A stretch of 64,000 nt of DNA, taken from NCBI GenBank assembly GCA_010093815.1, contig ML996569.1. One strand, 5' to 3'. The notes below the pieces were generated by a model. That model was not told the origin of the DNA and ran no database searches. It was given only the letters and a program-made list of their open reading frames with translations. Every line of letters begins with the position of its first letter. Position 1 is the first letter of the stretch. Positions 40,428 through 58,458 of this stretch are shown here, in pieces. Made by a program: the position numbers and the translations under genes. This DNA is from Pseudovirgaria hyperparasitica. Taxonomy: Eukaryota.

Positions 40428-42718
40428 CTAGGGGCGACCACGCTCATCAGGGTCCCAGACTCCACGCAGGACCTGAGCAGGGTTTCCAGCCACTACTGTG
40501 TACTTGGGGAAAGTCTACACCGTCATTAGCTTGCTTTCTGACATGGAAAATATTGAATGACTGACCTTGCAAACTACCGACCCCGCTCCGATAGTGGTCC
40601 CTTTCCCGATAGTAATGGGTTTACCTTTCCGGGCCACGATCGTGACGTTCGCGCCGATGAAACAATCTTCTTCGATTCTGATAACCACTCCAATGGCCGT
40701 GCCTTTGCTGCCCGCACGGTCTCTTGGATGGACAGCTACTGTGTTGCCCAAAATGTTCACGTTTGGTCCAATGACCGACCTTGCGCCGATGGTAATCTGG
40801 CAGGGATCCAGAATTGTGCAATTTGAACCAATGACAACGTTGTCGGCAATGTGGATGTTGTAGCCGTATTCACAATTGAACGGTGCTTCCACCTGGACAT
40901 CCTTGCCCACGGATCCACGGGGTTGTTCCTCACGTCGGGTGTTGGGCGAGTCCATGATGGCACGGAATTGCCGGACTCTTTCTTCGCGTGACACGCCCAT
41001 CGCCGGATTCTGGGCATTGTTGAAGCGCCACAGGGCTGATTTGCATTGTTCTCGCTCGTCAACCAATTGTGGGGCAAAAAGCAGGTACGGTTCACCCTTT
41101 AGCATCTTCGACTTTTCGGACTCCAGAGGAGGAGGTGGTGGCGGTTGCTGACGGGCGGGAGGTTGATAGTGAGATGTGGAAGATGTGTGTTGAAGTGCCA
41201 TCTGTGCGACTGTGCTTGCAGACTGATGCATGGATGGGGGTGGATGTCCATACTGCTGGTTGGGAGGTGGTCGTTGTTGTGGGGCCAATGGGGGAGCATC
41301 ATAGTATTGTTTCGTAGTCGCTCGTGGATCATGAGAAGCTTCAGCATAAGTGGCAGGGGGAGGCGGATGTGTATGCGACCTAGAATGCGGCTCAGGCCAC
41401 GAGGACCAAGGCTGTCGAGCTGCGGCGTTGCTGTTGTTGTTGTCGTCGACGACAATTGGACGACCTCTGTTCCCTTCATTGTAGGTTGCTTCGTGCTGCT
41501 CCCGAGGGACATGTGGTCTATATTATGTTATTAATACCTCGCAATGTGGTCATGACAAGGGAGTTCATTACCTGAACACAGACGTAGGGTTGTATTCGTC
41601 CTTTGCCTGGATGGGCATCGGCCCGCGGCTCGTGCTTGGTCTCGGCCCTTGTGATTTCAATTGGTGGTAGCCTTCGCAGACAAATCCACCACGAATGCAA
41701 TTGCTGCCTATTATGGAAAGTTAGCGATACCTTCCATACGCTACAGGAACACAATATTATATAGAAAGCGGTGAATTAGTGTGTAGCATACATTCTGGTT
41801 TGGCTTCGTCGCACTAAAAGAATATTAGCCATTGTCACATTGGTATATAGTATAGCCGCATGGCATTTAGATCTGTACATACCTTCTTCTTGCGTCTTCT
41901 GCAGGTTTGACATCCAGTCTTTGTTCGGTTGGCAAATTGCTTCGCGATGTCAGTTCATCCTTGCGAGGCGAGGCAAGCAAACTCACCCGTTTACGCTTCT
42001 TCGGATCGACCTGCACTCCAGCTCTGGTGAGTTCGGTGGTGCTGCTTGGCTCATTGTGGTCCTGGGTGACTGAATCATCGCCATTCTCGTAGTCGACAGA
42101 TCTCTGCGTGGGTGAGTGCATTCGATCTTGAGACTCTGCCATTCTAGATTCTGATGCCAAAGTATCTGGCCTCTCCCGATCGAGCCAGGGACCAGAACCG
42201 TAGCCAGTCGTTCCAGAGTGTGGAGCTGAATGTGGGATGCTGGACAGGTTGTTTGTGCTACGTGGTGAACGCGGGCTGATTGAAGATTCGTAACCATCGA
42301 CTTTGCGCCTGGCCTGTTCAGAAGATACAGCGGCACCGGTGAATGAGGTGTCGTCTGTACCAGACCGCTTGCGCTTATGCGTACTTGAACTGTTGTCTTC
42401 CGTGTCGTTTGTGGCCTGGGACGCACGATGGGAGGCAAACCCGTTTGTGAAAGTCCAAGCGGTTTGCGTGGTATCTGAGCCTTTTACTGCCGGTCTTTCG
42501 TCGCCCTCTGAGTTTGGTAGGGAGTTTGAGCGTGCTGTGTGATAGGTCCCGTGGGATCCATTCGTTTGAGGAGCTGATCGTGGCGGAGAGCCCGAAGTCC
42601 GACCGTTTACAGCAGTAAATCCAGAGGAAGTAGCGTATGCGTTGGTATCGATGGCCTTCTCTTTGTGTATCAGATCAGCTCCGTTGGTTAGGGGTGCTTG
42701 CGCAATAGACGGCATCAT
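40428..42718 (-). CDS. Zn(II)2Cys6 protein fused to a maltose/galactoside O-acetyltransferase-like (Mac + left-handed beta-helix) domain
   Basis: Spliced KKRKR/QFANRTKTGCQTCRRRKKK/CDEAKPE/CSNCIRGGFVCEGY (6 Cys); C-terminus SEKSKMLKGEPY..VEAPFNCEYGYNIHI..IGANVTI..IGAGSVV/TFPKYTVVAGNPAQV. Confidence 0.9.
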
Positions 42719-43592
42719 TTGCGCGTTACTGTGTTGATGTCCGCCGACCGGACAGAGAACAGAAGGAGCCAGACTAGGGTGCCGACGACTTTGAGTTTCG
42801 TAGATGGCAGATGTCCAGGGCTCAGGTTGCGTGGTGTGCTCGAAGTTGTACGTGACGGGTATATTATCTTGCTCAGATGTGTGCTAAATAATAGTCGTGC
42901 GGTGTGCGCGCTGCTAGCGGTGGCGGAGGAAGGATAGTCCAACAATGGAGACGAGTGACAGTAGTGCTGGTCTATAGATGGCCAAGAAGATGGAGCTCTT
43001 TATTCAACCTTGCTCTTCAACCGGAATATTTTTAACCTTGATTTTTAACCTGGAAGCGGTTCTAGAGGTCCAAAATTGGTGGTAACGAGAGCGACAGTGT
43101 GGACTTGGAAGCGGTGTGTATCTTTTATTTTTATTTTTATTTTCCCTTTCTTCTCGGGACAATATACAGGAGTGTAGCAGCGCAACGGCTTGGAAGGAGT
43201 AGAAGCGTCAAGTGTCGATCGAGTGGGCGGGATGAGGTTATGCAAATCGCGGGTGGCTCGTCTAGCGGGGGCGGGTGTTGATGTATAGTTGCAAGCAAGG
43301 CGGCTCGCGCGCGAAGCGAGAGATTGATATCGCGGAGACCAGGCAAACGACCGCACAGCGACCGGTACACAGATGGAGAAACAAAGATATAATACGGCGC
43401 AGGCAGAAACGCGCGAAGAGGGCGGAAGAGACGGGCGGAAAGACAGTGCGCACTGAAAAGTCAAGGCGGCGCAGTGGTTGTTGGGGGAGGAAAAGAAGAG
43501 AAGAAGGGTGGTGATGAGGATGATGGGAAAAGGACGACGAAGGTTGGGATTTGTGGATGATGGGAATATGGTGGATTCAAGGTGGATGAGAA

Positions 43593-43621
43593 ACAGCAGC
43601 AGCAGCAGCAGCAGCAGCAGC
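43593..43621. repeat. (CAG)n microsatellite
   Basis: About 9 CAG units. Confidence 0.9.
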
Positions 43622-43747
43622 GCGGGAAGACAACCACACGACTTTCTTGTCTGTTTGAATGCAAGCATCCCACCCCCATCGTGTCTGCTGATTGGCTACT
43701 GAGTGGGCTGTCCTGGCAGCTTTCCTCTCTTACTCACTGTCTCTCTG

Positions 43748-43750
<3 letters not shown>

Positions 43751-43778
<28 letters not shown>
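43751..43778. repeat. (CT)n microsatellite; a complementary (GA)n run lies at ~44100-44119
   Basis: Direct reading. Confidence 0.9.
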
Positions 43779-44253
43779 AGGTTCTCTACGTCTCTCTAGG
43801 TCTCTTCTCTAGGTAGCGGCTAGTGAAGCGTCTTCTTCCGGGGGGGTGGGGGAACCTAAGCTAATGGGGGGAAGAGGGGAGGGGAGTCCCCCTAGAGACG
43901 CCCCAGAACCCACCAGAACCCCCCAAAACCCCCCCAAATCAATCATAACTTCTAGCCAGTTAATCTGCCCATCTCAGCGTCCTCCCTCCCTAAACTGCTG
44001 CCACTGCCCTCCGATTGACCCCATTCTACCCTCAAATCCCGCTGCTGCCTCCCCTGCACTGCCTTGCCTTTTCACCCCCCCTCCCCCCTTAAAAAGATTG
44101 GAGAGAGAGAGAGAGAGAGACCAGGCAGGGCTTTTGGACGCGCATGAAACCAGCATCCAGCTTTTTCACTTTACGGCCCAACCACTCACGGCCCGCAACC
44201 TTCTAGCGTCTCACAAAGTCACTGCACACTAAAAAGACTGCTGCATCTAATTA

Positions 44254-44315
44254 GAGACTGGAGATTGATGACTGGAGGCTGATGACTGGAGACTGGAGAC
44301 TGGAGACTGGAGACT
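44254..44315. repeat. (GGAGACT)n heptamer tandem repeat with GATGACT variants
   Basis: gactggagactggagactggagactggagactg. Confidence 0.85.
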
Positions 44316-46249
44316 GCACACCGGGCGGCTCTCATAGACTATAGTAGTATAATACTCAGATAGTCTCACAACATCATATAGACAGACACATAAGCCCGAT
44401 TCGATGGATTGTCATGAAGAAGCACTAGTAATTGATAATTACTGCCGCCGCTTATTCCCTCCGCCCAGATGACACGCGCTGCTGGCTGCCAAAGGTGGTC
44501 TCCACACACATCAAGCTTGGACCCGTGGCTGCTGTTGCTGCTGTATTGGAGAAGATGGCTGTGCCGCCGGGGCTATGCCTCTCTCTTCCAAGAGGCCGCC
44601 ATCCTCGCTGACCGTTCCGTCTAATTATTCTATTCCATTGCATTGCCTAATTAATCCTCCTCCTTCTTGGCCACCCGTTCTCCATTATTCCAGCTGGTGC
44701 TTTTGGGCCGCGCGAGATGATTTACTGTTCCATATCTCCAGGAGACTCTTTGTCTTGTGCAAACATGTCATCCCACTCAGCGGAGCGGATACAAGCATGC
44801 TGTCTCCCCGAACACCTGCCATTCGCTCGATTCACCGCCGCGCCGCCCACCATCCACCCACCTCGACTCAGCCAGATCGCTTACGGCTGCGAGCCATGCT
44901 CCCGATTCTTCAACATGCGCGTGCCGCTTGAGCGGCTTCTGGCGCGCCCCTTTACCCGAGTCTGTATCCGAACCTTAATCGTTTTTTTCTCATGACGCAC
45001 CGCTCCCTCCCTGCGACTTGGTCATCCTGTCCAACGCTCGTATCGTCTTGCTTACAGCTGCCTCTGCTCCTGCTTCCAGTGCTGTGTTTCCATCTGCGGT
45101 TTGGCCCGCGAATCCCGTCCCAGGTTCGCTCAGAAATGCTCGCTGCCAAGATGCACGGCCGGCGCCAAACGCTTACGCGGTGCCGATATTGGCGCGTATT
45201 GTTGGTGAGGGGGAGGGGGGTCGGGCCCATCATCCCTGCGCAACCTGCCCCACCCACCTTTCACGAAACGCAAGGTAAGGTAATGATCCTTGCCAGCTGT
45301 CTCCACGCTCTAATCTGTTTTTATCGCCATCAACATCGCTCCACGGTACACGTCGGCGCTTCTCCGTCGTCAATTTGTGGTCTTGCTGGAGGGATATCCA
45401 CATGCTGTGTGCTCTTTCGAGTCTCGATGCACTACTACGTACGTCAACCATCAGCAGCCTGGCTGGGCGTGAATATACCAGTGACGTGACGTGACGGCTT
45501 GGTACGGGTAGGTATTAGATCGCACCAACGTTGGATGCAGGTGTGTGTGTGTCTTGAAAGACATGTACGCCCGAGAACCAGACAGAATGCACGCCATATA
45601 TTAGCAGGCGTAGCAGTCGTCTATATTGCTGCAGCAGATGCCGTGCTATTTTGAAATCTGCAGGCATCTAAGCTTTGCCACGAGTCGAGCAGCGGCATGC
45701 CCTCTGGCTGATGCCGTGGCCCTGCTGGTGGCGAGCAGGGGCTGCCCAGGACCGTGAGCGTGGTGTCGTTCCCGTCACCAATGCCATGGCTGCGAGCTGC
45801 ACTATGTCTGTAGGCGCCGTGCTCATCACTTGGCGGCTTCCATTTCCATCTCTTGACTGGCCAGATCTGCCCCCCTGCCAGCCCCGAGCCAAGGAGACGC
45901 CGTTCCATGATACGTTGCACTGGCTCAGTAGTTTCCGCTCTGCCGCTGGATCCTGCAAGCGTCGGCCAACGATACGAGCGTCAAGGCTCAAGCCTTGGCC
46001 GCCTGTCAAAGATCCTCCGCAGCCTTGTCGGATCTTCAGTGACAAGTCTCGCTCCTCTTCTCTCCCTGCTCTTGTTTGCAGGGCAATAGATCTGCATTGT
46101 GGCACGCCGTGTCGTCTCGAACGAGGGGTCGCAAAGGCCGTATCTCTGAACCTTATGCGGGCTTTCGAGCATGTATGCGGGGCCAGTGGGCATTCGCTCG
46201 CACACTATATATGAATAGAGTAAGCTAACCGGTATTGGACGAGGGTGGA

Positions 46250-46280
46250 GGTGGATGGTGGATGGTGGATGGTGGATGGG
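46250..46280. repeat. (GGTGGAT)n heptamer repeat
   Basis: gtggatggtggatggtggatggtggatgg. Confidence 0.85.
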
Positions 46281-49200
46281 GGTAAAGAGTCGCTATGCAG
46301 TGTACAGTGCCAGTGGTGTGTAGGTGGAGAGTAATGACCGTTTGAGAGCGTCATTTCCGAGCTGCAGCGTGATTCGCCGAGACAAGCGCGCTTAGAGAGA
46401 GAGGCAACGTTGCCCCTCGCCTTAGGCTGTAGGCACTTGCACCACCACCTTCGGGCAGAGCAGCTGCGCAATGCAGATGAGTGCAGACCACCTACATCCA
46501 TCCCATATATCAAACCTTGGCTATTCAACGCCAACTTCACCATCACACCCACTCGCGCCCTCGCAATTCGCGCCGTTACACGTGTGTGTGTATGCGCTAC
46601 TCATGCCCATTGCATGACTTCTTGTACCTCGCATCCGCTAACGCTGAGACGGTCCGTCCCGTTCTTGGAGCAATATCACATCTCGAGCACAGCCGGGCTT
46701 CAGGATGCGTTCGCACTGCGACGAGATAGGAACCTTCGTCTGCACTGTAGCAAGACACCAACTAAATTACGACCTACTCTTAATCAATCTGACCACCTCA
46801 CCGATGCGAAGCTTCGTCATCCACTAGGCAACATGTAGAAGCTTGTGCTGACCGCTTACGGCCCAGTCAAAGACCTTGTTTTACTACGCCTCAACCCCTA
46901 CGACGCTATCACGGCCATAAAAATGTGCCTCTGGTTGGGATATAGGGGCATTCAAGAGCATTGTCACTTAGGGACCACACTGAGACATGGTACCGATTCA
47001 TCTCCACAAGGCGTGCCTCGCGACGCTATCTTGAGCACCCGTATTAGCTTTTTCGTTACGCTGTCCGATATATGCCAATATGTCTTTGGGAGAACATTAT
47101 CTTCTTTTCTATTTATGATGAGCATCTTTCCCTGCTGGCGTTTTTGATAGACCTATACTGAATCCTATGAGAACGTAGATACCCTTCAGCGGTTGCGCAC
47201 AGCGTTTGTCACAACTACTCGTCGCAGCCGCGTCGTGAGTAGCCGCGACCATGTCCCAACTCAGAAAGCATTGTCCCAGCGGAAGGGCCCCGTGGAGAGA
47301 TGGGACGGCTCCCATTAGCCAGTTCGTTTACGGTCTTCAACGCTGTATATCAGGGGAGCAGTGTTCCAATGGGTAGTACCTCCGTTCTTTCAGCTGGGCG
47401 AGACCCGCAAGCTGCGTTGCGGCACAGCAGAGCCACGTCCAACGTGCCGCGGCCGGCTGGCCACGGTCATGGTCATGGTCATGGTTTCTCCCTGTACAGA
47501 AGGAAATGGTGGACAACGTGGTATCCCGAAATATATCAGACATATCCCTAAATGATCCACATCGAGCCGTTCGCGGCCCACTTCCCCCATGTCATCCCTG
47601 CTGTCTCTATATCCGGCTCTGTGGCATGATGTCTATCGCACTGACCTCAGAATAACTTTTCAGACATCTGGTACAAGCTATCAACAGAACAAGTCGCGGC
47701 ATTCCAATCATTCGATGTGTTCTCGCTAATTTCGAGTACTGTATCCCCACGCCAAGCATGTCGAGGCTTTGGGACTTGCAACCCCTAGCAACTGTGCCGC
47801 GATCCTACATGCTCACCGCGTTTGTTCGGCTTGCAAGGTGCAAGTCATGCCGCATCCTTCTCACAGACGTCAACGTCGCGGATGCGCAGAAGTACACGCC
47901 TGATTCGGTTGAAAAGCGAAGGCTTTGACGCAGAGCGCGCCAGACGCGCTGCTGCAGATACGCATCGTCCAGATCCGCATGTCTCACACATTTGTTGAAT
48001 ATGGCGTTTGCGACTCTGAAGAAGCGTGCATTATGCACCGTGCACCTGCAAGCCACATCCACCACTGCAATCTCATGACCTTGATGATCATTCCAGCTCT
48101 AGCCCCCTGACCATGAGCATGTTCTTCGATCATGAGATGAGGCTGTATGAGCCTTGCGGTGTGCGAACAGAGTCCGCGTTTGTTGGTTCTGCTGTGCCGC
48201 AACCATTGTGTGAGCAACGCGGCTAACTGTTTTTGACTTGGTGCAATCACTCTCTGTCATAGTCGACACTCGACAGCCAGCAGCATAGCTATTATCTTCC
48301 ATGCTCAAGCGACAGGTGTGCAAGCTGATGCATGGTGCACTATCGATTCTGAAGCTAGTCAGCAGTGTAGAAAAACACTTTGCCAAGGCACCGTGATGCA
48401 TGGCACGACCAGACTTGCAATCGTTCCAAATGCTGACAATCCATTCCTCCGTTTTGATTTCTCGGAGCGTCCGTTTACCAAACCTGACTTTCGAAAGCGC
48501 CCATACACCAGGAATAAGGAACTTGGGAACTTCCAAAGCACGCGAGTCTTTACACATCCGTGTCCCGTCGATATGTCCTCGGTATGCCAGGACCCCCCTC
48601 AGCTACGCGCGTTTGTAACGTGGAAGCATCCGCTCGAAAATCCCGAACCACAATATCGGAGTCAGTTTCTGGCCGATCAAGCGCCCGCATGAAGGCTGTT
48701 TTCAGCTCAATATCCTACTTTGCGGCGATAACGAGGCGCCGATGCCCCGACGACTGGAAGACGACATCCAAACTAAATAGCATCTTTATTTCATACGATC
48801 ACGAAAAATGGGGACAGCTTTGGGGGTTTCGACGGAGATTATTCTGCTGGTACGCCAGTGATGTGTGGCTGCTGAGCAGTGCGTTTCGACACACTTGGCC
48901 TGCCGCCTGGTCTCCTGGTAAGAGATACATCACACGAAATCATCTCATCGCAAGGGGCCGCCTGGACGCGACCAAGCAAGGGGTCGACCTCAGTCAGGAC
49001 ACCTCAGAGACTTTGCTAGCCATATTCCAATCCAATGGTGTTTGCTTAGTATCGAAATTTTCTACGAAAGTAGGCAGGGGGTTAGCTCACTCTGAACCGC
49101 GCGAATGGTTCACCAGTCCTCAGTCCATGGAATCAAAATCATATAAACCCTTTGGCTATGACGACGACAGAGTAGATGGGATTCAGGGTTAAGCACTACT

Positions 49201-50364
49201 ACACTGTTTCCTATCATTCCTGCCTGGTGCTTGCACCCACCAAAACCTACTGAAACATCCAGTTCCTTGACAAGGGAGAGTCGACCGCCCGTCGTCGTAT
49301 TCACATTCACCCACCTGTCCATCTCGAGGGGGCCAGCATATATAGTCGTATCGATGTAGTACTATCTCGAAGTTCCCGGCAGACCCATCATTCGTATATT
49401 CCATTCCGTGGCTTTCCCCGGAACTGTGTCATCGGAATGGTAACTAACTACTCTATCAAGATTGGCCAGCCATTGCTTGACTCTCTCTCTCTCTCTCTTG
49501 GCGTCGGCTATGAAAGCTGGAATAGTAAAGTGCGGCGATGTGTGTGTGTATGTGTGTGTGAACCCATCCATCCATCCATATTATGTAGTCCACCAGAAAA
49601 CATCTTTCTACTACTGAATTACGCGAGGTCATGGTGGTGTTCGTCATGGTCCCCCCCCCCAAAAAAAAAGATCAAAAAAGCCACGCTTCCTTCGACCCGG
49701 ATTTGCGTCGGAGCCACTGATTACATGTCTTGTCTGTTCTTCTAAACAAAGGAAGTGCGTGAGCCAGAGGTACTGCACTCGTATTCGGCCATTCTCCATA
49801 CTCTGCTTTACGAAGGCGTCGTCTCCGCAGACCCTTGCCAGTTCATCACCACAGTGTGTCTCACTCCCTTTTCTGATTCTATGTCTGTCATCTGGCGCGA
49901 AAGATACTTGTACGTACCCGTGAGTTGGGCTTTATAGCGCCGAAGAAGGCAGTGATGAAAGGCCTTTCTTTCTTTCTTTCCAACCGGGATAGCTGGTAGA
50001 GGTGACGCTGTAGCGGCCTGGCTGTAGCATGATATATGATGTATTCAGGCGCCACGAACCGGCTTTCTTTGTGCTGGATACACGATTTGCGGTATGTGTC
50101 CTTGGGTAGAATCAGTTAGTGTGCTTCTGAGAGCAAGAAGTCATGACGTCTGTTAGCTGTGAAGTCTCAGGACGCTGTACTGGCAACAAAGCACACAACT
50201 CCTCACCCACGCACAAAACCCACCACACGACATCACACAACGCACAATCAACCCAATCCAACACGACAAATCTCGCATTCGCTCCTCTACCAACCCTACA
50301 TCCCCCCGCAAACACACCCACCAAACAACTCCCAAGCCCAAAACCCAACCCACCAACCCCCCCC

Positions 50365-51763
50365 TCACACCCCCTCCCCATTCTCCTTACCCGCCTCACC
50401 CACAACCCCTTTCCCCTCCCCCACCACCTTTCCCCCCGCCCCCTTCCCCCTCCCAATCGTCCCCATCGGCGCCCTCGCAAAGTTGATCCCAAACTCCTGC
50501 CCTCGCCCCTCGCGCCTCAGCGCCAGCCCCGACGCCGCCAATCCAGCCGCGCCCGCTCCTCTGCCCCGCCGAGCCGGCGTCTCGGGCCACGGCGTCGCGC
50601 AAAGTCCCATGTGGGACAGACGACTGCTCATGCGGTCGACGGGGGAGCACGAGCGGGAGACGCGCTGGGCAGACGCATACTCATACACCTCATTGCCGTC
50701 GTCCGCCTCGTCTTGGGCCTCCGTGGAGGGGGCAGAGGAGGAAGACGGCAGCGCGCCCGCCTCAGCAGTAGCAAGCCAATTACCGAGAACAAGATTAACC
50801 GTCGCGATGCTGAGCGCGTCCAGCTTGACGGTGCGCGACATGCTGAGGTGGAGGATGTACCTGCGCTCGACGCAGACGGGGGCGTTGATCTTGACGTAGC
50901 TCTGCAGGTACATGTTGTTCGACTCCTTTTCCGTGCTGAGCGTCGGCATGCCCTCGCTGTTCTCCTGCTGCGCGTCCTGGCCGGAGTTGAGGATGTAGAG
51001 GAGGCGGCGGCGCATGCTGACGCCGGGCCGGTAGCATTCCGACATTTTCTTGCCGGCGAGGGTGGTGATGAGGAGGACGGAGGCGATTTCGGTGCGTTTG
51101 TCGTAGGAGAGGATCAGGATTGGGTGGGCTGGTGAGTGGGGAGGGGTGTTAGCTTTCGTTCTTGGAAGGTTTGGGGGGAGGGGGGGACGGTGTTGACTCC
51201 TTTTTTCGGCTGGATGTGTGTGGGTTGAGGGGAGGGAAAAGGGGAGGATTGTTTTACGTACCCCACCAGCCGTCGTCGACTTGCTTGTTTGCGATGGAGT
51301 CTCGCGGTATCTTCTCCGGCGTGTGGAAGATGCATCCGGGCTTGACCATGAATGAGGCGACTGGCACGTTCTTCCGCTCATGGGTACGCTCCTTTCTGTC
51401 CCAGTACGATCCATACGACTTCGAAATAGGCGGTGGGTGGAGCTCGTTATACATCGGCATGTTCGCAGACTCCTCGGACAACTCTGTCACTCTTGGACTC
51501 TGGGGCGGCTCGTGTGCCTTGTCGGACTCTCTGAGCCACGGGTTGCTTTGTGTGTCCTTGTCACGGTAGGGCTGTAGCTTCTTCTTCAACCTTGCTGTTA
51601 CGCCTGGGGGTGGTTCTATGGACGGCTTTCGCGACAGGAACCTGGGCTTACTATCCGACGCCTGTGTTTCCTCTCTGCCGGACAGAGCCCTCGACTCGTG
51701 GGAAGCAGCTTGTCCTTCCTTGAATCTTCGCTCTCCGCTTGGAAATGTGTCCCAGGGTGACAT
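50365..51763 (-). CDS. Hypothetical protein A with a PemK/MazF-like domain (2 exons)
   Basis: Exon1 51763-51262, intron 51261-51129 (GTACGT..GCTAAC..CAG), exon2 51128-50365 in frame: VKPGCIFHTP..GWW/AHPILILSYD..ASVLLITTL..QSYVKIN..VKLDALSI. Confidence 0.65.
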
Positions 51764-52787
51764 GGAAATCGGACGTGTGAGTGCGGCGTGGGATGATGAC
51801 TATACTCGATGACGGTACTGTTCAAGTCGGTGTCTGATCTCTCGATCTGATATGTCGAGCTGTGATTGTCCGTACCTTGACACAAGCTCTCTCTCCTCTT
51901 CCTCGAGATACAAGGTCTGTTCTCAAACCGTCTGACCAGTATGCTAATAAAGCTGTGCGATGATCAAATGTCCAAAAAGAAGCATATATCTCTCGAAGCC
52001 GTTGACAGCTTGGTGTGCGAAAATACACTGCCGATTACAGGGCATATGCGCAGTCATATAAGTATTATACTTTGCGGACAAGCTAGCAGAGTCGGATGTC
52101 ATCAAGAGAGAGTCGGACTTTGAGATCGGAGAACTGATCGAGAAACCTTTGAATCGACAAATGGCTTCTGTCTGTCTTATAGATATATGACAATCCCGAA
52201 CTTTTGTTTCTTCCTGGTAGTGTTCTCGACACGTGAAGATGTATTGTGAGATGGTGACGTATCGATGCCCGTGGGCCCCTGAGCAACGGCTGTTGATAGA
52301 ATTCTGGATTAGAGATGTCAGTTATGGGAGGGCTTGGGGGTGAAGAGACTTAGCGTCATGCGATCTACTCTTGTATGGATATCTCTAGGCGGTTGGTCTG
52401 ATGGATTGCTAATGATGAGTGTTGCCACAACGACAGACCAGGATCGAGGCACCTGGAGTCGAGTCGAGGTCAGACTGAAGATGTAGGTGGGCTCTGACAA
52501 CTGTCGTGTTTCGAAGAGGAAGAACACGTCGAGCGCGTCACTGAGATTTTATAACTGTGGGCTACATTGACCGGTCCAATCAGGCGCAAGTGTTTCGCAC
52601 ACAGGGTGTATTCACCTGACAGCTGGAGCGCTGCGGAACAGCCAATCAGGTCCAAGTCACTGTTAAGGATAAACGAAGTTGTGGGCATAAATTTGTGAAT
52701 TGACCAAGTGAACAAGAGCGCAAAGTACAATTGCATAAAGTACGCACTAACAAAGCATGTGCCAAAAAAAACCCATTTACATCATAC

Positions 52788-53017
52788 ATGAATGTGAAGA
52801 CTCTCGTCTCACAGCTTTATCACCGCCGGATCTACTCTCCATCACCAAAGAGAACCACCGAAAGTCCAGCTCCATCCGCCGGTAATACACCCCATCACCA
52901 AAGAGTATCACCGAATGTGAAGACGCCCGTCTCACAGCTATGTCACCGCCGGGTATACAACCCATCACCAAAGAGGACCACCAAAAGTCCTGCCCACTAT
53001 GCCAGAAATGTGAAGAG
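52788..53017. repeat. Imperfect direct repeat (123-bp unit plus a shortened copy)
   Basis: aatgtgaaga at 52791, 52914, 53007; gtctcacagct..tcaccgccgg..ccatcaccaaagag..ccacc.aaagtcc duplicated. Confidence 0.85.
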
Positions 53018-53462
53018 TGTCCACTGCAATTGGTGTGCCTGCCGATCAGAAAGCTGGGTTTCTGGCGGCCGCAAGAGAGCAAGTTTCGATAGTCCTGGGC
53101 TAACCCATAGACATTGCTTGTCTCAGCGAGTAGTGCCGTAGAAACCACTGCCTAAAACTCAGAACACGAGGAGCCCGCCGGCCAGAATACGTTTTCATTG
53201 CGGTGGAAAGATAGCAAACTTATGGCAGTCTTGGGAAGAACCCACAGACGTTGTTTACATCAGCCGGAGAACCGTAAGAGACGTTTCCTGGTGCCTCAAA
53301 TATGAGGTCGTCAACGGCGCCGAACCCTGAACTGGTACAATGGCTGAGCCGGATACGACAGCTTGGCATGGATATAACTGTAAGAAGCTGTGCCCGATAC
53401 GCTACAGATTGCTCCTCTGACGAGAAGCAATCTGAGATTGTTGCGTTGGCCGACAAGTTCAT

Positions 53463-54095
53463 TCAGTGCATCGATGGGCATCTAGCCTGAAGTGCCTTCC
53501 GTGCAGTCTCATACATCTCGACACCCTCAGGGAGGAGCCTGACCATCTTGTTGCCGGCACGAAGATGGCCGCCCAACTCCTGCTCCTCAACCTGGTAGGC
53601 ATGCTTGAGATCGACGTATGAGACCTTGCTCAATTCACCGAAATTGCCGTCCATCCTGATGGGCAGAGGGACAGTGCCGTTGTGGCTCGGCCTGCACCCG
53701 TTTTCGACCATCAGGAAGTCCGAATACTGGGACGACCTTGGGCCCAAGCCCCGGAACGACGTGACTGGTGCGAACTCGACGATACCGGAGTTGCAGCAGT
53801 AATCTGTCACGACGCCCGGGTGCTCCAGGGCTCCCAGATTGCGCTCGCAGAGCAGTCTCTGATAGAGCAGACTGCTGGATGGGAGCGAGGGCACCCAGAT
53901 GAAGTCTCCCTTCTGGTATCCAGTACCAGGAGGGGACTTTGGTAGTGATGGTGATGGTGATGGTGATGGCGATGGTGATGGTGATGGTGATGGAGATGGT
54001 GGTGCTGATAGACAGAGGGCCGAATCCCTTTTAAGCCCGGCGTTGGGGCATGGCTGACGTCGCTGAGGTGGGACGTACTTGCCGGGAGACGACAT
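53463..54095 (-). CDS. Hypothetical protein B with a PemK/MazF-like domain
   Basis: MSSPGKYVPPQRR, (SP)n linker, then YQKGDFIWVP..LEHPGVVTD..VEFAPVTSF..KVSYVDLKHAYQV..VRLLPEGV. Confidence 0.65.
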   Translation of the reverse strand: MSSPGKYVPPQRRQPCPNAGLKRDSALCLSAPPSPSPSPSPSPSPSPSPSLPKSPPGTGYQKGDFIWVPSLPSSSLLYQRLLCERNLGALEHPGVVTDYCCNSGIVEFAPVTSFRGLGPRSSQYSDFLMVENGCRPSHNGTVPLPIRMDGNFGELSKVSYVDLKHAYQVEEQELGGHLRAGNKMVRLLPEGVEMYETARKALQARCPSMH

Positions 54096-54376
54096 CTCTA
54101 CTCGATCAACACATCTAAACACAGTCAGGATGCCGTAACTGGGCGGTGGGAGCCAGCTTCATTTCACGATGATGCAGGCGAGGAAGACTCACGATAAGCC
54201 CCGATGGCTATCAGGGATTTGGTTGTTATACAAGACTCCAATGGTTGATGATAGTGTTGTATGAGCAGCTTTGCTTGTTTCGGTGTGTATGAAAAGATGA
54301 GATGGTTTGATGGGAAGAAGCAGGATACAAGACGGAATAGCTGGCATTTATAACAAGGTGGGCAGCCGGATGTGAC

Positions 54377-54530
54377 TGCTCTCATGTTCAGAGCGCAGTT
54401 TCCTGCTCGAACATTGAGGCATTTGCTCTCCTGTTCAGAGCGCAGTTTACTCTCTCGAGCATTGGGTGGGTCTTCAGAAAGCCCATCGCTACCAGGCAAA
54501 TGGGGGCAGGCGCCCTGATGTTCAGAGCGC
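54377..54530. repeat. 47-bp-period direct repeat plus a third core copy
   Basis: tgttcagagcgc at 54385, 54432, 54519; first two extend as tgctctc.tgttcagagcgcagttt..ctcga.cattg. Confidence 0.8.
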
Positions 54531-55755: not shown

Positions 55756-56534
55756 CTAACGCTCCGTCGTGTTCGGCATATACACGCTGAACTCCATCCC
55801 GCCATGATACGGCAATGTCACACTCTCAAACGGACCCTCGGGACCTCTCAAGAACCCCAGCAAATCCGAATACCCCTCTGCCGCATGGACGACATTATCC
55901 GTCACAACAACCGCGCCATAGTTCAGCTGCGGCAGCAGCAGCTCGAGCGCAGGCATAGCAAGATACGGCCAGACTAGCAGACCCGTCAACCCTCCCACCC
56001 AGTCACCCACCAGGAAAACTCACTATCAAGAAGCACAAAATCCACGTTTCCAATCCCGTCCCTCAGCGTCTCCTGCAAGTCGCCGACTCTCAGGTCAATC
56101 ACGTCGTCCACGCCCGCGGCTTTCCAGTTCCGGCGTGCGGCTTCGGCTTTGCTGCTTTCTTTCTCTGTCGCTATGACTTTTGGGCGCACGGGATGCACCG
56201 GCTTGGCGTGTCCGCATTCGATGGCGGCGAGCGCGAGATAGATTGTGCTTACGCCGAAGGAGGTTCCGACTTCGACGATCCGACGGGCCCCGCGGGCGAG
56301 GATGAGGTTGTAGATGGCGAGGGCTTTGTCGTTGTCTATAGCGACGAGTTTGTCACGCATGGACGCATCTACGGTTTCGATGGCGGATGGGGTGTGGAGC
56401 GTGGATGTGTCGCGGGCTAACGTGAATGCGTCTGCGTCGAAGTTGGCTTCCTGGGCTGTTGAGGCGGCGTGGAGATTATCTAGTAAGTCGCGGACCGTCG
56501 GGGAGAAGGACTTTGGGTACTTCAGTCGAGACAT
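55756..56534 (-). CDS. Class I O-methyltransferase (catechol/caffeoyl-CoA OMT-like)
   Basis: ARRIVEVGTSFGVSTIYLA, IDLRVGDL, VDFVLLD/IW, GAVVVTDN; intron 55974-56023. Confidence 0.9.
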
Positions 56535-57098
56535 TGTTTTAGACTGCAGCTTGTAGTCGGCGTAGATCTAGAAACTGTTGGCCGTTTAAGTATTTACGGT
56601 TTGTACGGCGGCTGGTGGCTTGTTGGCCGATTCCGCTCACGTGTACCGCAGATCCGGATCCGGCACGTTCGGCGCGTCCCCCCTGTTCATCTTCACTACC
56701 GTCTATTTATTGCACCAGATGCGTTTCTTTTTCCAATTCATCTGGAGCACATTGATCCTCCATCCTCCATCCGACGTCATTCAGGAACACGAAGCCAGCC
56801 AGACCAAAGCGCTCAGTCATCCTCGGAATCGTCGCTCTTCGGGTTTTGACGATCTCACTTCACCCAGCCGCTTTACCGCATTAGGCTGGACGGCGCGAGC
56901 CAGTGATTGGCCAAGAATGCAACACCACAACCTCTGCTGAATCATGGCCCGAGCCCGAGCCGAGTCTTTAATCAGCATGGGCGATGATAACGCGGAATAT
57001 GATCGCAAAAACACTGCTATGAAGATGTCTGCGCTTGTCGAGCAGAAACCCTCCCGTCTCAAATCACACCATATACCCCGAGAACTATCATATACACA

Positions 57099-58458
57099 AT
57101 GCCAACCTTCACAATCATCATCGTCGGCGCAGGACTCGCAGGACTCTGTAGCGCGATCGGACTGCTCAAACAGGGCCACAAAGTCATCATTCTCGAACGT
57201 GCTCACAAGCTCTCACCAGCAGGAGCCGGCATTCATGTCCCGCCCAACGCCACTCTGGTGCTCGAACGATGGGGCATCCTGGAGAGATTCCGGCACGTAG
57301 CCATTGTGCCAGCCAGCTTCACGTTCAGGCGGTACGACGACGGACGATTGCTCGGCAGGACGGCGCCGGAGGGAAGCGAGACCGCCTCGAGAACACCGTA
57401 GGAGACTCTCCTTGAACGCAACACCGCAGTCGACCATGCTAACCAGCACAGATACTGGTCCATGAAGCGCGCAGACTACCAGTCAATCCTCCACGACATA
57501 GCCACCGAGCTGGGCTGCGACCTCCGCCTCAATCAACACATCGTCTCCGTCAACGAAGACGAGCCCTCCGTCACGACATCCACCGGAGAACTCATCAAAG
57601 GCGACCTCATCATCGCCACAGACGGTAACATACATACATACCCCTTCCCTCCCTACACCACCCCCTACTAACATTCCCAGGCATGAAATCCCACCTCCGC
57701 ACCCTCATCCTCCCAAACAACAACACATCCCCAACCACCCACCCGCAAACCACCTACCGCGCCTGGGCCCCTATATCCACCCTAACCACCAACCCCNNNN
57801 NNNNNNNNNNNNNNNNNNNNNNNNNNNNNNNNNNNNCCACATAATCACCTACCCCACCGCAAACAACACCATCCTCTCCATCAACGCCACATACCCCTCC
57901 TCCGAAACCCCCCCAACCACCACAGATATCACCCCCCCCTTCTCAACCTTCCACCCCACAATAAAAACCCTCCTCACCCACGCCCGCGACCCGCAATCCC
58001 ACCCCCTCGCCCAAATCCCCCCTCTCCCGCGCTGGACCTCCGCATCCGGCAAAATCGTCCTCGCGGGTGATGCCGCGCACGGCATGCTCCAGTTTCTCGC
58101 CCAGGGGGCGGCCATGGCGACGGAGGATGCGGCGGCGCTGGCGGAGTGTGTGGGGCGTGTTCGAGAGGCGGGGGAGTTGCCGGCTGCGATGCGGGTGTAT
58201 GAGGTGGCGCGGAAGGGGAGGTGTGAGCGGGTGCAGGCTGCTGCTAGGAGGAGTGGGGAGTGGGTTATGATGGGGGATGGGGTGGGGCAGGAGGTTAGGG
58301 ATCGGGGGATTGCGGGGGAGGAGGTGGGTGAGGTTGGGGGTGAGGGGGAGAATGGGGTTCTGGGTCCGTTGCTGGATAGGGGGTTTCGGGAGTGGTTGTA
58401 TTGGCATGATGTGTTTGGGTGTGTTAATGGGTTGCTTGATGGGCGGGTTGGGGGGTGA
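57099..58458 (+). CDS. FAD-dependent monooxygenase (salicylate hydroxylase-like); spans an assembly gap
   Basis: IIIVGAGLAGL (GxGxxG), GAGIHVPPNA, RADYQ, DLIIATDG, LAGDAAHGMLQFLAQGAAMATEDA; at least two introns. Confidence 0.9.
57797..57836. other. Assembly gap (40 N)
   Basis: Run of N. Confidence 1.

What the first reader, a model, noticed from the sequence alone, without database searches (positions are those of the whole stretch)
50365..54095. Tandem pair of eukaryotic PemK/MazF-like (toxin RNase fold) genes
Seen: two neighbouring minus-strand genes with little overall identity share the same ordered motifs. B: QKGDFIWVP..EHPGVV..FAPVTSF..SYVDL..VRLLPEGV. A: KPGCIFHTP..AHPILILS..VLLITTL..SYVKI..VKLDALSI. 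Known: E. coli MazF reads GDLIWVD..GHRPAVVLS..VPCTTQ..VALADQV, with R29/T52 catalytic. Both proteins keep the Pro and TS/TT positions but have His in place of Arg. Gene A has a clean spliceosomal intron, so it is genuinely fungal. Inference: a fungal family of MazF-fold RNases or RNA-binding proteins in an accessory region, possibly antiviral, allorecognition/cell-death, meiotic-drive, or a toxin plus decoy pair.
Basis: partly seen in the sequence, partly recalled or inferred. Interest (0 to 1): 0.85.

Follow-up and report, generated by a model that had tools for sequence, protein, structure and literature searches.

The report
Two diverged fungal MazF-like genes
Two neighbouring genes of the rust-hyperparasite fungus Pseudovirgaria hyperparasitica probably encode very diverged relatives of the bacterial MazF/PemK toxin fold, but both lack the arginine that MazF enzymes need, so they are unlikely to be ordinary MazF-type RNA cutters.

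Summary
Gene A (51763..50365, minus strand, one 133-nt intron) is the annotated 421-aa hypothetical protein EJ05DRAFT_536932 of Pseudovirgaria hyperparasitica. Gene B (54095..53463, 210 aa) is in no protein collection searched.

A and B are not significantly alike pairwise (123 to 849 of 1000 shuffles reach the observed score). Neither matches any Pfam, NCBIfam, PHROG, PADLOC or PDB sequence. Both AlphaFold2 single-sequence models failed (pLDDT 31 and 32), so I did not verify the fold.

Three weaker lines do agree:
No control reached a score of 20 (0 of 200 column shuffles, 0 of 150 random ORF pairs).
- Both proteins have the same nearest ESM-Atlas cluster, Ascomycota proteins that partly carry DUF6590.
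- The Atlas's own model of A resembles PemK models (TM 0.51-0.58).

The arginine present in 64 of 65 bacterial members is histidine in both. No antitoxin-like ORF is nearby.

Verdict: probably diverged members of a catalogued but unstudied fungal DUF6590-like group with a MazF-like fold. RNase activity, toxicity and pairing are untested. Interest is moderate.

The parts
51262..51763 (-). Gene A exon 1 (codons 1-167 plus the first base of codon 168). It holds the disordered-looking N-terminal 127 residues and the first core motif KPGCIFHTP.
   Evidence: ORF and sequence. The join with exon 2 equals P0002.
51129..51261 (-). Gene A intron, 133 nt, GTACGT...GCTAAC...CAG, phase 1.
   Evidence: Sequence. 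Removing it gives exactly the annotated protein P0002.
50365..51128 (-). Gene A exon 2 including the stop codon. It holds the AHPILILS, VLLITTL, SYVKI and VKLDALSI motifs, then a Gly/Ala/Arg-rich 129-residue tail.
   Evidence: (100% identity to P0002).
50755..51382 (-). Core domain of A (P0002 residues 128-292, interrupted by the intron): the putative PemK/MazF-like, DUF6590-like domain.
   Evidence: hhalign N-half match to PemK. ESM-Atlas feature and structure neighbours for residues 120-300. The hydrophobic fraction is 0.36, against 0.19-0.20 in the tails.
53463..54095 (-). Gene B, an intron-less 210-aa ORF including the stop. Not found in the protein collections searched.
   Evidence: The exact sequence is not in the 15-billion collection. 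Its frame has the best codon score of six, with GC3 0.64. Atlas recognition score is 2750.
53466..53942 (-). Core domain of B (residues 52-210): the putative PemK/MazF-like, DUF6590-like domain.
   Evidence: Alignment A1. B alone against PemK gives P 0.012 over 44 columns, in the same register as A1. Atlas neighbours.
53945..54009 (.). Hexanucleotide microsatellite (GTGATG)n, 10.8 copies, which encodes the (Ser-Pro)n stretch in B's N-terminal tail.
54346..54352 (-). TATAAAT, about 250 nt upstream of B's ATG: a possible TATA box (inference only).
   Evidence: Read from the sequence. Not tested.

Best explanation
A and B are two neighbouring, same-strand, monocistronic fungal genes. Their core domains of about 150-165 residues are very diverged members of a fungal group around Pfam DUF6590. 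That group is a remote relative of the bacterial PemK/MazF toxin fold, a small beta-barrel domain that works as a dimer in bacteria.

They most likely arose by an old tandem duplication and have drifted beyond pairwise recognition. They are not a bacterial-style toxin-antitoxin module. There is no antitoxin-like ORF. Each gene looks monocistronic: A is spliced, and both proteins carry long low-complexity tails. The catalytic arginine of MazF enzymes is histidine in both.

The mechanism I commit to is inference. The domain binds single-stranded RNA in the groove that MazF uses. A His-Thr pair sits where MazF has Arg-Thr, giving either weak or altered endoribonuclease chemistry or binding only. 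A's Arg/Gly-rich tail would add unspecific RNA affinity.

Shown: gene structures, motifs, the profile match to the N-terminal half of PemK, the identical nearest Atlas cluster, and the loss of the Arg. Inferred: the fold, dimerisation, RNA binding, any catalysis, the common origin of A and B, and that B is expressed.
For: - Gene models: A equals the annotated protein P0002 after removal of a canonical intron. B is a 210-aa ORF whose frame has the best codon score of six and GC3 0.64, in a region of 51% GC.
- Profile-profile, first set: A+B alignment A1 against 43 MazF/ChpB-like sequences gives probability 53.5%, P 1.3e-4, score 29.5.
- Profile-profile, wider set: against 65 sequences under 70% identity from several phyla it gives 80.2%, P 1.4e-5, score 34.0, A1 columns 10-63 on MazF 4-53.
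- The N-terminal half alone gives 90.9%, P 1.2e-6. With B as first row: 51.6%, P 1.5e-4.
- Controls: 200 column shuffles have mean 10.5, sd 1.84, max 16.7, and 0 of 200 reach 20; the reversed alignment scores 10.3. 150 MAFFT-aligned random pairs of other long window ORFs have mean 10.7, sd 2.12, max 18.2, and 0 of 150 reach 20.
- Singly, B (P 0.012, 44 columns) and A (P 0.04, 21 columns) align in the same register.
- ESM Atlas: both have the same first cluster (262 aa, 75 members, Ascomycota, DUF6590 on 17%) at 0.93, sharing 203 and 193 of 256 features. A DUF6590 cluster (69% of 110 members) is second for A. One bacterial PemK cluster is at rank 21 for B and rank 27 for A, scoring 0.86 and 0.87.
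- The Atlas's own model of A aligns to fungal clusters at TM 0.77, 0.69 and 0.69 (the third carries DUF6590 on 43% of members). It aligns to three PemK-bearing bacterial clusters at TM 0.58, 0.51 and 0.51.
- DUF6590 has 152 profile positions, the size of these cores.
- Conserved PemK columns kept in A and B: G10 (64 of 65), P30 (61 of 65), T52 (56 Thr plus 8 Ser of 65).
Against: - No sequence-level hit supports any family. Pfam at E <= 10 gives nothing for A, and only a low-complexity DEC-1_N hit (E 0.51) for B; PF02452 and PF20233 are absent. NCBIfam, PHROGs and PADLOC give 0. PDB sequences give nothing relevant, singly or as a profile. My own PemK HMM does not hit A or B among 703 window ORFs at E <= 10.
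- A-B similarity is at chance level pairwise.
- The C-terminal half gives no profile signal (P 0.52). Only its register agrees.
- Both AlphaFold2 single-sequence models failed (mean pLDDT 30.8 and 32.4), so I verified no fold.
- The Atlas model of A is of modest confidence (pTM 0.43, mean pLDDT 0.54 for the whole protein). Its rows say 'under the bar: name no family'. Language-model features and a language-model fold are not independent of the sequence motifs.
- The Arg present in 64 of 65 bacterial members is His in both, and 0 of 65 have His there. Arg-to-Ala abolished cleavage in MazF-sth (PMC10893535, passages).
- B has no relative and no record in 1.84 billion representatives or the 15-billion collection, so it may not be a functional gene.
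Confidence: 0.55

Rival explanations
1. One reading: active MazF-type endoribonuclease toxins, or a toxin plus a decoy or immunity partner that pair with each other. They would act in fungal conflict (antiviral, allorecognition, drive or mycoparasitism).
For: The profile and Atlas evidence for a PemK-like core is the same as above. The Thr or Ser that 64 of 65 bacterial members have at the T52 column is kept in both. His is a common general acid/base in other RNases (my own knowledge, not tested). The genes are adjacent on the same strand.
Against: The Arg present in 64 of 65 bacterial members, and essential by mutagenesis, is absent in both. The near-invariant Q77 (52 of 65) and E24 (54 of 65) columns have no clear counterpart. 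No antitoxin-like family appears in any of the 76 ORFs of 50 aa or more between 49.4 and 56.0 kb. There is no evidence of toxicity, of pairing or of presence/absence polymorphism.
Confidence: 0.12
2. The same fold, but with no nucleic-acid role. The barrel would serve as a protein-binding module, as in CcdB, which shares the fold and poisons gyrase (recalled). Or it would have some unrelated, fungus-specific DUF6590 function.
For: MazF active-site and base-recognition residues are lost. Only the structural N-terminal half is recognisable. The nearest neighbours are fungal proteins of unknown function, not toxins.
Against: The retained His-Pro and Thr positions lie exactly at the MazF catalytic loop and strand in both diverged copies, which suggests constraint there. 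A has an Arg/Gly-rich tail of the kind common in RNA-binding proteins (the association is my own knowledge). No CcdB comparison was run.
Confidence: 0.2
3. Chance resemblance. A is an orphan hypothetical gene and B an unannotated ORF that may not be a gene. The MazF-like motifs are coincidental short hydrophobic patterns.
For: There is no significant pairwise similarity, no family hit in any library and no homologue of either in the large protein searches. The folds failed. The candidate was picked by eye for its MazF likeness.
Against: The joint profile score of 34.0 lies far outside two nulls: 0 of 200 and 0 of 150 reach 20, with maxima of 16.7 and 18.2. Two independent Atlas queries return the same first cluster out of 7.7 million, with 193 and 203 shared features. 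PemK models are among the nearest structural neighbours of A's Atlas model.
Confidence: 0.13

Closest known systems
PemK/MazF family of bacterial type II toxin endoribonucleases (Pfam PF02452)
   Same: The order and register of N-terminal motifs agree: G-D/C-x-x-W/H-V/T, then x-H-P-hydrophobic strand, then hydrophobic-T-T/S strand. The profile-profile match covers MazF residues 4-53. G10, P30 and T52 equivalents are kept. Core size is similar once two insertions are allowed. The Atlas model of A aligns to PemK models at TM 0.51-0.58.
   Different: There is no HMM-level match. The catalytic Arg is His. The C-terminal half is unrecognisable. About 45 extra residues lie between the Thr strand and the SYV strand. 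The proteins carry long disordered-looking tails. The genes are eukaryotic and monocistronic, one with an intron and none with an antitoxin.
DUF6590 (Pfam PF20233), an uncharacterised domain of Ascomycota proteins
   Same: It is the nearest neighbour of both A and B by language-model features (0.93), and of A by predicted structure (TM 0.69-0.77). The domain length is 152 positions. The taxon is fungal.
   Different: Neither A nor B reaches the PF20233 model, even at E <= 10. The first cluster carries the family on only 17% of its members. I could not obtain any DUF6590 sequence to align, so membership is a lead, not a test. I do not know whether Pfam already places DUF6590 in the CcdB/PemK clan.
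CcdB (gyrase poison with the same fold as MazF/Kid; recalled, not examined here)
   Same: It would share the barrel fold if the PemK-like reading is right, and it shows that the fold can work without RNase chemistry.
   Different: No comparison was run. No sequence or profile evidence links A or B to CcdB specifically.

Membership tests
PemK/MazF (PF02452) | Match to the family HMM at or above the gathering score (23.1 bits) | tested here: not met
   No PF02452 hit for B, for A's exons or for spliced A at E <= 10. My own PemK HMM gives no hit on A or B among 703 window ORFs at E <= 10.
PemK/MazF (PF02452) | Profile-profile similarity over the whole domain | tested here: inconclusive
   The N-terminal half matches: probability 80.2%, P 1.4e-5 for the whole alignment, and 90.9%, P 1.2e-6 for the N half alone. 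Controls are 0 of 200 and 0 of 150 reaching a score of 20. The C-terminal half gives P 0.52.
PemK/MazF (PF02452) | Catalytic arginine (E. coli MazF R29 / B. subtilis R25) | tested here: not met
   Arg in 64 of 65 bacterial sequences, His in none. The aligned residue is His in both A and B. The Arg is essential according to PMC10893535 (passages).
PemK/MazF (PF02452) | Conserved threonine or serine (E. coli MazF T52) | tested here: met
   Thr in 56 and Ser in 8 of 65 bacterial sequences. The aligned residue is Thr in both A (ITTL) and B (VTSF).
PemK/MazF (PF02452) | Small beta-barrel fold forming a homodimer | tested here: inconclusive
   AlphaFold2 single-sequence models have pLDDT 30.8 and 32.4 and are unusable. 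The ESM Atlas's own model of A aligns to PemK models at TM 0.51-0.58, but 'under the bar'. The oligomeric state was not established.
PemK/MazF (PF02452) | Adjacent cognate antitoxin gene (MazE/PemI type) in one operon | tested here: not met
   None of the 76 ORFs of 50 aa or more between 49.4 and 56.0 kb has an antitoxin-like Pfam hit at E <= 0.01. The genes are separate eukaryotic units 1.7 kb apart.
DUF6590 (PF20233) | Match to the family HMM (27 bits) | tested here: not met
   No hit at E <= 10.
DUF6590 (PF20233) | Resemblance to family members by features or predicted structure | tested here: inconclusive
   Atlas features score 0.93 for both, with 203 and 193 of 256 shared. DUF6590 is on 17%, 69% and 24% of members of the top clusters. 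Structure gives TM 0.69 to a cluster with DUF6590 on 43%. There is no alignment or E-value, and no member sequence was available to me.

The most novel reading that the evidence does not exclude
The DUF6590-like proteins of fungi, this tandem pair among them, would be a eukaryotic radiation of the bacterial MazF/PemK toxin fold. A His-Thr site would replace Arg-Thr. They would act as endogenous sequence-specific RNA cutters or binders in fungal conflict or stress control; in this species that could mean mycoparasitism on rust fungi. A and B would form a functionally coupled pair, such as an effector and its regulator. In six searches of the held library I found no paper that describes a fungal MazF/PemK relative or mentions DUF6590 or PF20233.
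Probability: 0.12. Interest if true: 0.8.

Novelty: new member of a known kind. Interest (0 to 1): 0.45.

Why it matters
MazF/PemK toxins are treated as a prokaryotic invention. If a widespread fungal family (DUF6590 and its fringe) shares that fold, an uncharacterised domain gets a first testable function: RNA binding or cleavage with a His-Thr site. It would also add a case of a bacterial toxin fold retooled in eukaryotes.

For this locus the practical gains are modest. One hypothetical protein gets a structural hypothesis. One unannotated ORF (B) is flagged as a likely gene. The simple 'MazF RNase' reading is weakened by the loss of the catalytic arginine.

Tried and rejected
- Homologue searches:
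  - B in the word-indexed 5.8-billion set: 8000 candidates scored, none at E <= 0.001, probably swamped by the Ser-Pro repeat.
  - B by phmmer over 1.84 billion representatives: 1 hit, E 3e-4, on the low-complexity residues 12-60 only.
  - A exon 2, residues 1-125: 89 candidates, and only A's own record P0002.
  - Alignment A1: 187 candidates, none at E <= 10.
  - A was never searched exhaustively with HMMER, because the single job went to B.
- DNA collections with A1: in genome contigs 56 pattern matches, none confirmed. In metagenome contigs 446 pattern matches, none confirmed. The second metagenome scan was not used.
- tblastn of B's core against 72,556 plasmids at E <= 10: 2 records, both in a carboxylase gene, irrelevant.
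- AlphaFold2 without alignments: both models are unusable. I therefore ran no fold search.
- Complex prediction for A core with B core: 'no answer', score 0.00 in two runs. This is no evidence either way.
- Sequencing runs: no RNA holder is listed. The one run X1 (kind unknown, contigs) lays error-free contigs on 50784-51113 and 51248-52200. It lays none on B, on the intron interior or on the rest. This says nothing on expression of either gene.
- No whole genome is held for the window, so paralogues elsewhere in the genome could not be sought.
- No further copy exists in the 64-kb window.
- Rfam and tRNA scans of 48-56 kb: nothing.
- Literature: 'DUF6590' 0 papers, 'PF20233' 0 papers. Four combinations of MazF/PemK/PF02452 with fungal terms gave nothing on fungal relatives in the listings. 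Passages of PMC2446400 and PMC12699882 were checked and are irrelevant to MazF in fungi. No supplements were read.
- Earlier-findings look-ups returned nothing for this genome, and one unrelated prophage MazF relic from another genome.
Full report
**What is there.** The window is fungal. The protein search returned a 421-aa hypothetical protein of Pseudovirgaria hyperparasitica (EJ05DRAFT_536932; KAF2759666.1 / XP_033602117.1) that is 100% identical to the query from gene A. ORFs elsewhere in the window carry ordinary eukaryotic families such as eIF-2B, Alg14, uL24m, Ima1 and glutamate dehydrogenase.

Gene A lies on the minus strand. It consists of exon 1 (51763..51262), a 133-nt intron (51261..51129, GTACGT...GCTAAC...CAG) and exon 2 (51128..50365). 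A script that joined the exons by coordinates confirmed identity to P0002.

Gene B is an intron-less 210-aa ORF (54095..53463), 1.7 kb upstream on the same strand. AHPILILS spans A's splice junction. The E. coli MazF strings and the positions R29 and T52 are correct as read from NC_000913.

**Is B a gene?** Its exact sequence is not in the 15-billion-protein collection, and no relative turned up.
- Its frame has the best codon log-odds of the six frames (0.062, against -0.107 to -0.306). This falls within the lower range of the window's Pfam-supported ORFs (0.047-0.278).
- GC3 is 0.64 overall and 0.73 in the core, in a region of 51% GC.
- The ESM-Atlas recognition value is 2750; 91 in 100 known-family proteins reach 2300, and 9 in 100 shuffled ones do.
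- A TATAAAT lies about 250 nt upstream of the ATG.

I regard B as a probable but unproven gene.

**Is the A-B likeness more than chance?** Not on its own.
- BLASTP gives E 7.7 for six residues.
- phmmer does not link the two among 703 window ORFs.
- Local and global alignment scores under three schemes lie at z -0.88 to 1.27, with 123 to 849 of 1000 shuffles reaching the observed score.

**Family searches.** These were negative throughout.
- Pfam at E <= 10 gives nothing for A. For B it gives only a DEC-1_N hit on the Ser-Pro tail, E 0.51.
- NCBIfam, PHROGs and PADLOC give 0.
- PDB sequences give nothing relevant, singly or as a profile.

**Profile-profile test.** I took E. coli MazF and ChpB from the annotated genome and collected relatives from public bacterial genomes. 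I added PF02452 matches from three further genome searches.
- 70 ORFs were reduced to 43 at under 80% identity. hhalign of A1 gives probability 53.5%, P 1.3e-4, score 29.5.
- With 100 sequences reduced to 65 at under 70% identity, it gives 80.2%, P 1.4e-5, score 34.0, with A1 columns 10-63 on MazF residues 4-53.
- With B as first row: 51.6%, P 1.5e-4, score 28.5. A alone gives P 0.04. B alone gives P 0.012 over 44 columns in the same register.
- The N-terminal half alone gives 90.9%, P 1.2e-6.
- The C-terminal half alone gives P 0.52.

Two controls were run:
- 200 column shuffles of A1 (against the first PemK set): mean 10.5, sd 1.84, max 16.7; 0 of 200 reach 20. The reversed alignment scores 10.3.
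- 150 MAFFT-aligned random pairs of 162-residue pieces from the 45 other long ORFs of the window (against the wider set): mean 10.7, sd 2.12, max 18.2, minimum P 0.013; 0 of 150 reach 20.

The signal is real relative to these nulls. It covers only half the domain, and the candidate was hand-picked for this likeness.

**Language-model and predicted-structure neighbours.** Two separate ESM-Atlas queries gave the same first cluster: 262 aa, 75 members, Ascomycota, DUF6590 on 17%. The score was 0.93 both times, with 203 of 256 shared features for B and 193 for A.
- For A the second cluster is DUF6590 on 69% of 110 members.
- One bacterial PemK_toxin cluster stands at rank 21 for B (0.86) and rank 27 for A (0.87).
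- The Atlas holds its own model of A (pTM 0.43, mean pLDDT 0.54 over the whole protein). Residues about 126-300 align to fungal hypothetical clusters at TM 0.77, 0.69 and 0.69; the third carries DUF6590 on 43%.
- The same residues align to three bacterial clusters whose aligned part or members carry PF02452, at TM 0.58, 0.51 and 0.51. All these rows are flagged 'under the bar'.
- PF20233 has 152 positions, the size of these cores.

These are leads, and they are not independent of the sequence motifs.

**My own structure attempts failed.** AlphaFold2 without an alignment gave mean pLDDT 30.8 for A's core and 32.4 for B's core. No fold search was justified. A complex job for A with B returned 'no answer'.

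**Active site.** In the 65 bacterial sequences, the column of MazF R29 is Arg in 64 and His in 0. P30 is Pro in 61. T52 is Thr in 56 and Ser in 8. G10 is Gly in 64. E24 is Glu in 54 and Q77 is Gln in 52.

A and B keep the Gly, the Pro and the Thr. Both have His at the Arg column. Neither has a clear counterpart of E24 or Q77. Mutagenesis reported in PMC10893535 (abstract and passages read) shows that the equivalent Arg and Thr are needed for cleavage in MazF-sth and MazF-bs. A canonical MazF mechanism is therefore unlikely. A His-based or binding-only role remains open.

**Context.**
- No antitoxin-like family occurs in any of the 76 ORFs of 50 aa or more between 49.4 and 56.0 kb. There are two sub-threshold low-complexity hits only.
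- There is no RNA family and no tRNA in 48-56 kb.
- There is no third copy in the window.
- A's core (hydrophobic fraction 0.36) is flanked by a Ser/Pro/Glu/Arg-rich N-terminal 127 residues and a Gly/Ala/Arg-rich C-terminal 129 residues.
- B has a (Ser-Pro)n tail encoded by a hexanucleotide microsatellite.
- Whether the region is 'accessory' could not be tested, because no genome or relatives are held.

**Conclusion.** The pairwise A-B similarity is not significant. The MazF-like reading rests on a half-domain profile match plus language-model and predicted-structure neighbours.

My best reading (confidence about 0.55) is a pair of very diverged DUF6590-like fungal proteins with a PemK/MazF-type fold. 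They have lost the catalytic Arg and are not a toxin-antitoxin module. RNA binding, with or without altered cleavage, is the most likely activity.

The family is catalogued (DUF6590) but unstudied in the literature I could search: 0 papers for 'DUF6590' or 'PF20233', and nothing on fungal MazF/PemK relatives in the other listings. I do not know whether Pfam already groups DUF6590 with PemK/CcdB.

Noticed in passing
window 52790-53009: Two 97-nt direct repeats, 80% identical and spaced 123 nt apart, with a 43-nt sub-repeat in three copies. They lie in the 1.7-kb spacer between A and B, with no family hit on any frame. Possibly a decayed small repeat element.
   Followed up: partly
window 54366-54530: A motif of about 28-31 nt (TGCTCTC.TGTTCAGAGCGCAGTTT, partly palindromic) occurs three times, 270-435 nt upstream of B's ATG and just beyond a TATAAAT at 54346-54352. 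It may be a repeated regulatory site.
   Followed up: no
window 50131-51135 (+): A 334-aa Pro-rich open frame runs antisense to A's exon 2. It has no family hit and is probably a by-product of the GC-rich sequence.
   Followed up: partly
window 50752-51126 and 53466-53942: The cores of A and B have high third-position GC (0.87 and 0.73). Ten of the 12 Pfam-supported ORFs used as the codon training set lie at 0.47-0.64; the exceptions are glutamate dehydrogenase (0.76) and an O-methyltransferase (0.70).
   Followed up: no
window 51271-51301: A 2650-nt contig of run X1, at about 97x depth, shares a 31-nt stretch (1 mismatch) with A's exon 1 and continues with unlike sequence on both sides. It is unexplained and probably a chance or low-complexity match.
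   Followed up: no
window 41870-49189: Several long ORFs have no Pfam family: 41870-42883(-), 43048-43695(-), 44473-45486(+), 45671-46204(-), 46338-46835(+) and 48518-49189(+). They lie next to the A/B locus. Their codon scores are mixed, 0.002-0.145 for the three that I scored.
   Followed up: partly
window 55986-58455: An O-methyltransferase-like ORF (55989-56567, minus) lies next to an ORF with a weak FAD_binding_3 match (57502-58455, plus; E 7e-4, below the cut-off). This is a possible small tailoring-enzyme pair just upstream of B.
   Followed up: no
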